Position numbers: made by a program | Assembly: GCF_013167455.1 (NCBI RefSeq) | Contig: NZ_CP038328.1 | DNA: 64,000 bases | DNA from: Escherichia coli O157:H7 | GTDB lineage: Bacteria > Pseudomonadota > Gammaproteobacteria > Enterobacterales > Enterobacteriaceae | Direction: 5' to 3' (one strand) | Shown here: piece by piece, positions 16,001 to 19,000 of the stretch | Layout: every line of letters begins with the position of its first letter | Position numbering within the stretch: position 1 is the first letter of the stretch

Positions 16001-19000
16001 GCTGAATTACAGCCAGTTGCTGAAAGTGTACCGTGCGCTGCTGACCGAAGGCGTTTCCCTGCGCGATATCGTCACCATCGCCACCGTGCTGGTCGCCAGT
16101 AGCGCGGTGACTAAAGATCATATTCTGCTGGCGGCCGATGTGCGCCTGGCGCTGCGGCGCAGCATTACCCATCCGTTCGTTCGCAAGCAGGAGCTGACGG
16201 TGTATACGCTGAATAATGAGCTGGAAAATCTGCTGACTAACGTAGTGAATCAGGCGCAACAGGGCGGTAAAGTGATGCTCGACAGCGTGCCAGTGGACCC
16301 GAATATGCTCAACCAGTTCCAGAGCACGATGCCGCAGGTGAAAGAGCAGATGAAAGCGGCGGGGAAAGACCCGGTGCTGCTGGTGCCGCCGCAGCTGCGC
16401 CCTTTGCTGGCGCGCTATGCAAGGTTGTTTGCGCCGGGGCTGCATGTGCTGTCGTATAACGAAGTGCCGGATGAGCTGGAGTTGAAGATAATGGGGGCGT
16501 TGAGTTGATTGGCCTTTAAGGGGCGCATCCGGCATTGGTGCACAATTGCCGGATGCGGCGTGAACGCCTTATCCGGCCTACGGTTGAGTGCAGTTTTGTA
16601 GGCATGATAAGACGCGCCAGCGTCGCATCAGGCATCCGGCACCAGCGCACAATTATGAAATGATACGCTCCCCGGCACTAAAATCCGTTATGTCTCCCGC
16701 CCAATCAATGGGATATAACCCTCGCGCCACATCGCGATGGAACGTTGAGAATGGCCAATCACTCACTTGCTTTACCCAGCCATGTTTTACTGGATTTATA
16801 TAAATATAATCAACATGATGGCGATAGTCTTTGGTATTGCGGATGGTGTGCTCCTAAAAACGTGGTTGCCAGATATTTTTCAATCCACAAGCATGGGTGA
16901 ACTGCTTTTTAATCTCCCGCCAGCGGGAGGAAAAATCATCATCGCTTTCGGGTAATGTCCATATGCAATGCATATGCTCCGGCAAAACGACCCAGGCGTT
17001 AATTTCAAAAGGTCTGTCTCGCTTAACGTTAATAATGGCGTTACGGAGCATCTGGAACTGAGCGGTCAGAAGGTGGCTTCGACGATTTCGTAGGTTAACC
17101 GTGAAAAACCAGGTTCCCCCTTTGATGTAATACCGACGATATTCAGACATGGCAACTCCTTTTTCTCAACGGTAAGAAGAAAAGGAAAGGTCGGCAATGA
17201 GGTGATGGAATAACGGGAAAGCGGCTCGCAAAAACGCACAGATTTGTAGGCATGATAAGACGCGTCAGCGTCGTATCAGGCATCTGCGCACAACTGCCGG
17301 ATGCGGCGTGAATGCCTTATCCGTCCTACAAAATCGTCTCTTCCGTCAAAATCCGGCGCGCGCCTAAAAAGTGATCCTGCCAGAAAGGTTCAGCTAACCG
17401 ACTTACCCGAATGGTTTCCCCGGTGCGCGGTGACTCAATAAACTGACCGTCGCCCAGATACACCCCCATATGGTCGGCAATCTCGCGGCTGTGGATATGG
17501 AAAAACAGCAAATCTCCCCGGCGCAGGTCGTTATTCGCCACAATCGTTGCCCGATGGTAGTGATACATCTCATTAGCCGTACGCGGGAGCTTCGCCTCGA
17601 GGATCTTGTTGTAGGCATAAAAAACCAACCCGCTACAGTCAAAGCCTTTATCAGGCCGCGTGCCGCCCCAGACGTAAGGCTTGCCAAGCTGCTGCTCCAG
17701 GCGGTGAATCGCCACTTCGGTAATGTTATGCAGATGGTCGCTGCTTAAAAAGTGGTTGTTTTCCGCCAGCGCCTGCCAGCGTCTGTCACTCGCCTTGAGC
17801 GGTGCAGGAAACCATTCTGGATGCTGTTTTATCTGTTCGCGGTTGTGCTGGCGTAGCGCCCTTCTGCTTTCGGCATTGCCTTCCACAATATAGCTGACCA
17901 GCTTTTTCAGATGGGTTTGGTACTGTTTTAATAAACGCGCACGGTTTTGCATCCGCTGGCGGGCGGCGTAGCTGAAAGAGATATGTGATGTGGTGGCGCT
18001 GGCAAATGAAGAAAACGGCAAACAAATCAACAGTAATCCCGACAATACAAAGGATGGAATCGACGGCAAGGACATACTCAATAATGGCTGGTCATGCATT
18101 GATGTTACAGTGTATCCCGGCCCGTACCTGAACAAACTTAATAAACCATTATTATAAAATTAATAAATATATTTCAGTTAATTATGTAAAAACATCCGTT
18201 TATTAAATTACTCATAGATTGTCGCTGTTGCTCATTTGAGCTACAATTCAAGCTGAATAAATATACAGCATAGGAGATATCCCAATGGCTGCTAACGCAT
18301 TTGTTCGCGCCCGAATCGATGAAGATCTGAAGAATCAGGCGGCGGACGTACTGGCCGGGATGGGGCTGACCATCTCTGACCTGGTTCGCATAACCCTCAC
18401 AAAGGTCGCGCGTGAAAAGGCATTGCCGTTTGATTTACGCGAGCCTAATCAATTAACCATTCAATCAATCAAAAACAGCGAAGCTGGCGTTGATGTTCAT
18501 AAGGCCAAAGACGCCGATGATTTATTTGATAAATTAGGAGTTTAAATATGATTCAAAGGGATATTGAACTCGGGACAATTTTCAAAGGATGTAAAACTTG
18601 CACAAAAGCGTCATAAGGATATGAATAAATTGAAATATCTTATGACGCTTCTTATCAATAATACTTTACCGCTTCCAGCTGTTTATAAAGACCACCCGCT
18701 GCAAGGTTCATGGAAAGGTTATCGCGATGCTCATGTCGAACCGGACTGGATCCTGATTTACAAACTTACCGATAAACTTTTACGATTTGAGAGAACTGGA
18801 ACTCACGCGGCGCTCTTTGGGTAAAGCCCGCTGCCGATGAAATTTGTAAACCCTGCGCCGACAGGCTTGCGTAAAACTCTTTTGGTGATAATGTGAGCCT
18901 TCCCAATCCAGACTATTCCGATTTGGGATCCATTTTGCCGTCCTGGCGTGTGTAACCGTTTTATCAAGGAATAAGCAGTATGCGTAAAATCGCATTAATT

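What the first reader, a model, noticed from the sequence alone, without database searches (positions are those of the whole stretch)
16653..17150. REP-flanked rayT carries an internal amber codon
The transposase frame stops at TAG (16854-16856) after IWQPRF, yet continues in frame with a well-formed C-terminal half (EHTIRNTKDYRHHVDYIYINPVKHGW...GERIIS) that includes the expected catalytic tyrosine region. From memory, the K-12 protein is intact with Trp at this codon, so this looks like a TGG-to-TAG transition. That would leave the surrounding REP/BIME arrays without their cognate enzyme in this strain.
Basis: partly seen in the sequence, partly recalled or inferred. Interest (0 to 1): 0.45.

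Follow-up and report, generated by a model that had tools for sequence, protein, structure and literature searches.

The report
Known rayT nonsense pseudogene in O157:H7
The gene for the enzyme that cuts E. coli's REP repeats is knocked out by one premature stop codon, inherited by the whole O55:H7/O157:H7 lineage; it is real, but already annotated as a pseudogene and ordinary, since about a third of E. coli strains lack the gene entirely.

Summary
rayT (yafM, tnpA_REP) lies on the minus strand at 17150..16653. It has 165 codons, and codon 99 is TAG (window 16854-16856). All 11 intact E. coli alleles I fetched, including K-12 and the crystallised protein 4ER8, have TGG (Trp) there.

It is not a sequencing error. 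The exact 61-mer containing TAG occurs in 310 records (309 of 5426 complete E. coli genomes). These include O157:H7 and its progenitor lineage O55:H7 (CB9615, DEC5A, TB182A). No genome has this allele with TGG; the nearest intact allele is 95.8% identical.

The 98-aa product keeps the HUH motif (H59/M60/H61). It lacks the catalytic Tyr115, the metal ligands N119, H123 and E161, and the C-terminal tail. The only in-frame restart is GTG at codon 129, after Tyr115. O157 genomes have no second rayT copy at the DNA level, so the lineage very probably has no active RayT.

None of this is new. NCBI's PGAP marks the gene "internal stop", and the Sakai reference lists yafM (ECs_0255) as a pseudogene. 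rayT is absent from 1852 of 5426 complete E. coli genomes, and published work found no clear effect of its loss on REP numbers. Interest is low.

The parts
16653..17150 (-). rayT (yafM / tnpA_REP) pseudogene: 165 codons plus TAA, interrupted at codon 99
   Evidence: Translation. PGAP annotation 'REP-associated tyrosine transposase RayT, internal stop' in the identical O157 sequence. NCBIfam NF047646 scores 176.8 bits against a cutoff of 80 for the conceptual W99 protein. Full-length match to PDB 4ER8, E = 1.8e-113.
16854..16856 (-). Premature amber codon TAG (W99*), from TGG by a G-to-A change at gene nt 296 (window 16855)
   Evidence: TGG in all 11 intact alleles. The exact TAG 61-mer is in 310 records / 309 genomes.
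16857..17150 (-). The open reading frame that remains: 98 aa, MSEYRR...IWQPRF. It contains the HUH motif and the residues that contact the REP hairpin (R46, R78, K81, K82, Q83, T85, H86, K91, R97).
   Evidence: the ORF listing. Residue roles from PMC3479197. All these residues are present in the O157 translation.
16968..16976 (-). HUH motif codons H59-M60-H61 (CAT ATG CAT)
   Evidence: Read directly from the sequence. Motif assignment from PMC3479197.
16806..16808 (-). Codon for the catalytic tyrosine Y115 (TAT), now downstream of the stop and not translated
   Evidence: Sequence, translation, Y115 assignment from PMC3479197.
16653..16766 (-). The only possible in-frame restart after the stop: GTG at codon 129, 37 aa (MSDWPF...GERIIS). 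It begins after Y115, N119 and H123.
   Evidence: the ORF listing.
16548..16633 (.). 3' BIME: Y-type REP at 16548-16581 (+) and Z-type REP at 16598-16633 (-) in inverted orientation, with a further partial palindrome at 16524-16557
   Evidence: 0 matches in shuffles.
17246..17329 (.). 5' BIME: Z-type REP at 17246-17281 (-) and Y-type REP at 17296-17329 (+). The Y REP overlaps the last 4 nt of yafL.

Best explanation
This is a lineage-fixed nonsense pseudogene of rayT, the single-copy HUH/Y1 nuclease that recognises REP hairpins. A G-to-A transition changed Trp99 (TGG) to amber (TAG) in an ancestor of the O55:H7/O157:H7 clone complex, and every sequenced descendant inherited it. Intact RayT binds a REP hairpin plus its 5' GTAG. 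It cleaves single-stranded DNA at a CT dinucleotide using Tyr115, with a metal ion held by H59, H61, N119, H123 and E161. Translation of the O157 allele ends after residue 98, so the product has the HUH histidines but no nucleophile, only two of the five metal ligands and no regulatory tail. It lacks the residues needed to form the covalent tyrosyl-DNA intermediate. Shown here: the stop codon, its ancestral state, its distribution, the absence of a restart that includes Y115, and the absence of a second copy at the DNA level. Inferred: loss of enzymatic activity (from published structure and function work on the K-12 protein), and that the loss is neutral or nearly neutral.
For: TAG at codon 99, against TGG in 11 intact alleles. 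The exact TAG 61-mer is in 310 records / 309 genomes, including O55:H7 CB9615, DEC5A and TB182A, early-branching O157 such as LSU61, and sorbitol-fermenting 493/89. 309 of the 310 records pass an E-value cut I placed to separate zero from one mismatch over all 498 nt. That count matches the 310 records carrying the O157-type allele at >=99%, so no intact version of this allele exists among 5426 genomes. PGAP calls it 'internal stop' in O157, O55:H7 and NJS001, and Sakai lists ECs_0255 yafM as a pseudogene. Catalytic residues Y115, N119, H123 and E161 all lie after residue 98 (PMC3479197). The only in-frame restart is GTG at codon 129. O157 records show one rayT place in distant blastn. Intact alleles are under purifying selection, with dN/dS about 0.1, so the gene is functional where it is intact. 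Loss is common in the species: rayT is found in only 3574 of 5426 genomes. Ton-Hoang et al. describe precise excision in B2 strains and replacement by hicAB in B1 strains, and DSM 103246 has an independent IS2 disruption.
Against: The allele shows no further decay. Only one other private site exists among 12 alleles (synonymous, codon 75), and dN/dS against other alleles is 0.05-0.16, like intact genes. That is expected for a young clone and does not by itself prove relaxed constraint. Loss of activity was not measured. Low-level readthrough of UAG cannot be excluded by sequence analysis.
Confidence: 0.92

Rival explanations
1. Sequencing or assembly error: the true sequence is TGG and the gene is intact.
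For: Nothing here supports it beyond the fact that it is a single-base difference.
Against: The identical TAG 61-mer is present in 309 independently assembled complete genomes from many laboratories and platforms, including three O55:H7 strains. No genome has the O157-type allele with TGG.
Confidence: 0.005
2. The amber codon is read through, by natural near-cognate decoding or a suppressor tRNA, giving a small amount of full-length, active RayT. That would act as an extra layer of down-regulation on an enzyme that is already auto-inhibited.
For: The downstream 66 codons are perfectly preserved with every catalytic residue intact. K-12 RayT is described as severely down-regulated and auto-inhibited (PMC3479197), and estimated REPIN transposition rates are very low, about 1e-8 (PMC8049555), so trace amounts might matter.
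Against: Preservation of the downstream half is uninformative in so young a clone, where 309 of 310 records appear identical. No recoding signal was looked for or found. From general knowledge, wild-type O157:H7 is not known to carry an amber suppressor, but this was not tested here. Complete loss of the gene in 34% of E. coli genomes shows there is no strong need to keep any activity.
Confidence: 0.03
3. The 98-aa N-terminal fragment is a stable protein that binds REPs without cleaving them, so the gene has a new function instead of being dead.
For: All residues reported to contact the REP hairpin (R46, R78, K81, K82, Q83, T85, H86, K91, R97) lie in residues 1-98 and are conserved in the O157 allele. 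The fragment alone still scores 109.6 bits on NF047646.
Against: REP binding in vitro requires the 5' GTAG. Two of its bases bond with C-terminal residues around E161, and without GTAG no binding is detected (PMC3479197). The truncation falls at Trp99, before helix alpha-D, which carries Y115, N119 and H123 and packs on one face of the four-stranded sheet, so a stable fold is doubtful. No selection signal can be extracted from an invariant clone.
Confidence: 0.04

Closest known systems
E. coli K-12 RayT / TnpA_REP (YafM; PDB 4ER8), the REP-associated tyrosine transposase
   Same: Same locus between yafL and the flhA (fhiA) remnant, same length of 165 codons, flanked by BIMEs on both sides. It is 92.8% identical in nucleotides, and the conceptual protein matches 4ER8 end to end at E = 1.8e-113. 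H59/M60/H61, Y115, N119, H123 and E161 are all encoded.
   Different: Codon 99 is TAG instead of TGG, so only residues 1-98 are made. There are eight further amino-acid differences from K-12 (Q26H, T30A, Y32F, H37N, K41N, G69S, A102T, V154I), and each is also seen in intact alleles of other strains.
Other natural losses of rayT in E. coli: precise excision in phylogroup B2, replacement by hicAB in B1 (Ton-Hoang et al. 2012, PMC3333891), and IS2 insertion in DSM 103246
   Same: The outcome is the same: a genome full of REPs with no functional RayT. 1852 of 5426 complete genomes have no rayT, and the paper reports 74 of 110 genomes carrying it.
   Different: Here the loss comes from a point nonsense mutation that leaves the whole REPtron (gene plus flanking BIMEs) physically in place. 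It is confined to the O55:H7/O157:H7 clone complex.
IS200/IS605-family Y1 transposases (TnpA of IS608, ISDra2)
   Same: HUH/Y1 single-strand DNA nuclease fold, and recognition of a DNA hairpin plus a 5' guide tetranucleotide (PMC3479197).
   Different: RayT is monomeric, single-copy, auto-inhibited and domesticated. The Pfam scan gave no hit at E <= 0.01, so the relationship is not visible at Pfam HMM level for this protein.

Membership tests
RayT / TnpA_REP (REP-associated tyrosine transposase, NCBIfam NF047646) | Sequence match above the curated family cutoff | tested here: met
   The conceptual W99 protein scores 176.8 bits against a cutoff of 80, and the 98-aa product alone scores 109.6 bits. 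Full-length match to 4ER8.
RayT / TnpA_REP (REP-associated tyrosine transposase, NCBIfam NF047646) | Gene flanked by REP/BIME sequences (REPtron) | tested here: met
   One Y + Z REP pair in inverted orientation on each side, as described for E. coli in PMC3333891.
RayT / TnpA_REP (REP-associated tyrosine transposase, NCBIfam NF047646) | Single copy at the conserved yafL-fhiA(flhA) position | tested here: met
   Gene order yafL-rayT-flhA'. One place per O157 record in near and distant blastn.
RayT / TnpA_REP (REP-associated tyrosine transposase, NCBIfam NF047646) | HUH motif present | tested here: met
   H59-M60-H61 encoded at window 16968-16976.
RayT / TnpA_REP (REP-associated tyrosine transposase, NCBIfam NF047646) | Catalytic tyrosine (Y115) on the same polypeptide as the HUH motif | tested here: not met
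   TAG at codon 99 ends translation before Y115, and the only in-frame restart is at codon 129. By descent it belongs to the family; as a functional enzyme it does not.
RayT / TnpA_REP (REP-associated tyrosine transposase, NCBIfam NF047646) | REP-specific single-strand DNA cleavage and strand-transfer activity | not testable with these tools
   Needs biochemistry. Activity was demonstrated only for the K-12 protein (PMC3333891, PMC3479197).
Pfam Y1_Tnp / IS200-like transposase domain | Pfam HMM match | tested here: not met
   No Pfam family at E <= 0.01 for either the full conceptual protein or the 98-aa product. The relationship to IS200/IS605 rests on published structural comparison.
Fixed nonsense pseudogene | Ancestral sense codon, with the derived stop shared by a monophyletic group | tested here: met
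   TGG in all other alleles. TAG in all 310 records with the O157-type allele, including O55:H7.
Fixed nonsense pseudogene | Signs of relaxed constraint after inactivation | tested here: inconclusive
   Only one other private change (synonymous), and dN/dS is like that of intact alleles. The clade appears invariant in 309 of 310 records, so it is too young to carry a signal.

The most novel reading that the evidence does not exclude
The O55:H7/O157:H7 clone complex is a natural rayT point-null that still has an intact REPtron. Its 98-aa N-terminal fragment, which carries the HUH motif and all the hairpin-contact residues, might persist as a non-cleaving REP-binding protein, or rare amber readthrough might supply trace enzyme. 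In that case the locus would be attenuated or repurposed instead of dead.
Probability: 0.05. Interest if true: 0.4.

Novelty: already known. Interest (0 to 1): 0.1.

Why it matters
It matters little. The stop codon is a valid lineage marker for the O55:H7/O157:H7 complex, and it means this pathogen very probably cannot mobilise REPs through RayT. However, a third of E. coli genomes lack the gene outright, and published REP counts do not clearly differ between strains with and without rayT (PMC3333891). One practical point concerns automated surveys of RAYT presence and absence that use tblastn or DNA similarity. Such surveys could score O157:H7 as RAYT-positive although the gene is disrupted. 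The lineage could also serve as a natural null control in studies of REP/REPIN dynamics. The one-BIME difference between O55:H7 CB9615 and O157:H7, arising behind the same dead gene, hints that local array changes do not need RayT.

Tried and rejected
1. Sequencing error: rejected, because 309 genomes carry TAG.

2. An intact near-identical allele in close relatives: I searched with a TGG 'revertant' 61-mer and with an E-value-limited listing. The 16 exact TGG matches belong to alleles only about 94% identical overall. The nearest intact allele is 95.8% identical.

3. Re-initiation producing a C-terminal catalytic fragment: rejected, because the first in-frame start after the stop is GTG at codon 129, beyond Y115.

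4. A second rayT copy: none found in distant blastn.

5. The 7% divergence from K-12 as a sign of pseudogene decay: rejected. dN/dS is about 0.1, the differences are shared with intact alleles, and neighbouring yafL is equally diverse, so this is a local diversity hotspot.

6. Pfam assignment: no hit. NCBIfam was used instead.

7. Literature on the O157 stop: nothing in the held library. The supplements of PMC3333891 are not held.

8. Neighbouring PGAP pseudogene flags on tssG and tssE in PV15-279: both genes are intact in the window, so I dropped them.

Full report
**What is there**

The window is E. coli O157:H7. Positions 16500-17330 are 100% identical to many O157:H7 chromosomes.

On the minus strand, 17150..16653 encodes 165 codons plus TAA. 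The translation is MSEYRR...IWQPRF*EHTIRNTKDYRHHVDYIYINPVKHGW...GERIIS*. The internal stop is TAG at codon 99, window 16854-16856, read as CTA on the plus strand.

The gene is rayT (yafM, tnpA_REP):
- With Trp restored at position 99, the conceptual protein matches PDB 4ER8, 'TnpArep' from K-12, over residues 1-165 at E = 1.8e-113.
- It scores 176.8 bits on NCBIfam NF047646, 'REP-associated tyrosine transposase', against a cutoff of 80.
- Pfam gave no hit at E <= 0.01.

The gene sits between yafL and the truncated flhA (fhiA) remnant of the Flag-2 cluster. It has a BIME, meaning an inverted Y-type plus Z-type REP pair, on each side:
- 3' side: 16548-16581 (+) and 16598-16633 (-).
- 5' side: 17246-17281 (-) and 17296-17329 (+).
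- No such matches occurred in shuffled sequence.

**Ancestral state**

I fetched eleven intact alleles from diverse E. coli: K-12 DH1, XH992, PEC422, O169:H41, 042, PapRG-06-5, TOK-001, SWYHX138, FDAARGOS_943, TUM18530 and deer strain 48. All have TGG at codon 99 (comparisons).

**Real or error, and how widespread**

- A 61-mer centred on the TAG matches exactly in 310 records, 309 of 5426 complete E. coli genomes.
- The carriers include O157:H7 of all kinds: Sakai, EDL933, EC4115, the early-branching LSU61 and the sorbitol-fermenting 493/89.
- They also include O55:H7 strains CB9615, DEC5A and TB182A, and a pig isolate, NJS001.
- The count of 310 equals the number of records carrying the O157-type allele at >=99% identity. 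Every copy of this allele therefore has the stop.
- The same 61-mer with TGG is found only in alleles that are about 94% identical overall.
- The nearest intact allele is 95.8% identical.
- 309 of the 310 records pass an E-value cut that I placed between zero and one mismatch over all 498 nt. CB9615 and NJS001 are identical base for base.

The mutation therefore predates the split of O55:H7 and O157:H7 and was inherited clonally. Resequencing is unnecessary.

**Consequence for the protein**

For the K-12 enzyme, Messing et al. (PMC3479197) assign these roles:
- H59/M60/H61 form the HUH motif.
- Y115 is the catalytic tyrosine.
- N119, H123 and E161 are further metal ligands.

The O157 product ends at residue 98. 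It keeps the HUH histidines and all the reported hairpin-contact residues (R46, R78, K81, K82, Q83, T85, H86, K91, R97). It lacks the nucleophile, three of the five metal ligands and the tail.

The only in-frame start codon after the stop is GTG at codon 129, giving 37 aa. No re-initiated product can contain Y115.

Loss of activity is inferred from this published structure and function work. It was not measured here.

**Is there another copy?**

Near and distant blastn both give one place per O157 record and the same 3574 rayT-positive genomes. Ton-Hoang et al. (PMC3333891) likewise report a unique chromosomal position. A very distant paralogue could not be excluded at the protein level with the tools available.

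**How ordinary is this?**

The pseudogene is already annotated:
- PGAP marks it 'internal stop' in O157:H7 PV15-279, O55:H7 CB9615 and NJS001.
- The curated Sakai reference lists yafM ECs_0255 as a pseudogene covering just the 297-nt N-terminal ORF.

Loss of rayT is also common in the species:
- It is undetectable in 1852 of 5426 complete genomes, while REPs are found in 5425 of 5426.
- Ton-Hoang et al. found it in 74 of 110 genomes, with precise excision in B2 strains and replacement by hicAB in B1 strains. They could not see a clear effect of its absence on REP number.
- Park et al. [quoted passage not shown]
- I also met an independent IS2 disruption in strain DSM 103246.

No paper in the searchable library mentions the O157 stop specifically.

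**Age and selection**

Intact alleles are under purifying selection, with pairwise dN/dS about 0.1.

Among 12 alleles, the O157 allele has only two private sites: a synonymous change in codon 75 and the stop itself. Its amino-acid differences from K-12 are all shared with intact alleles. There is no sign of post-inactivation decay. That fits a recent event in a young clone, but it gives no power to separate a dead gene from one still under selection.

**Rivals**

- Sequencing error is excluded.
- Functional readthrough and a REP-binding 98-aa fragment cannot be formally excluded. Neither has positive support.
- The fragment idea is weakened in two ways. REP binding in vitro needs the GTAG guide, which contacts C-terminal residues. 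The truncation also removes helix alpha-D of the fold.

**Verdict**

The feature is an already annotated, lineage-specific nonsense pseudogene in a gene that E. coli often loses. Interest is low.

Noticed in passing
window 16653-18075 (rayT and yafL), compared with L002-L005 and L013-L015: The yafL-rayT segment is a local diversity hotspot within E. coli. Among 8 strains, median pairwise dS is 0.23 for rayT (maximum 0.46) and 0.20 for yafL, against 0.034 for the adjacent dinJ. The rayT alleles look mosaic: the O157 allele matches FDAARGOS_943 over roughly nt 1-200 and matches PapRG/TUM18530 at the 3' end. The cause is unexplained; possibilities are recombination, old alleles, or proximity to the Flag-2 deletion scar.
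   Followed up: partly
window 16509-16652, compared with L007 23575-23806: The 3' REP array differs by exactly one BIME unit (88 nt). O55:H7 CB9615 has two BIMEs (232-nt spacer). The O157:H7 window and NJS001 have one (144 and 150 nt). The junction lies in the repeated GGTGCCGGATGC. All three carry the same dead rayT, so if the stop arose once, this change happened without functional RayT.
   Followed up: partly
window 14790-16508 (+) and 14039-14824 (-): The flhA (fhiA) next to rayT is the N-terminally truncated remnant of the Flag-2 lateral-flagellar cluster, followed by lafU. Strains XH992, FDAARGOS_943 and TUM18530 still have a full-length 2094-nt flhA at this position.
   Followed up: no
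window 46396-47478 (+) and 44165-44578 (+): The T6SS genes tssG and tssE are flagged as pseudogenes (internal stop, frameshift) in O157:H7 PV15-279. Both translate as intact ORFs in this window. The window differs from PV15-279 by several small indels, so those flags are specific to that strain or assembly.
   Followed up: yes
window 10663-11386 (-): Adjacent fragments of rtcB (missing its C-terminus) and prfH (missing its N-terminus) are annotated as partial pseudogenes in the matching O157 and O55:H7 records. This looks like a deletion scar spanning the rtcB-prfH pair.
   Followed up: no
NZ_CP044147.1 (hits H236 / H289), not in the window: One rayT-TAG copy lies on a 46.9-kb record labelled as a plasmid of O157 strain AR-0428. 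It is probably an unplaced chromosomal fragment, not a plasmid-borne rayT.
   Followed up: no
L008 (NZ_CP019944.1, strain DSM 103246): An independent inactivation of rayT: an IS2 insertion removes the N-terminus of an allele that has TGG at codon 99.
   Followed up: no
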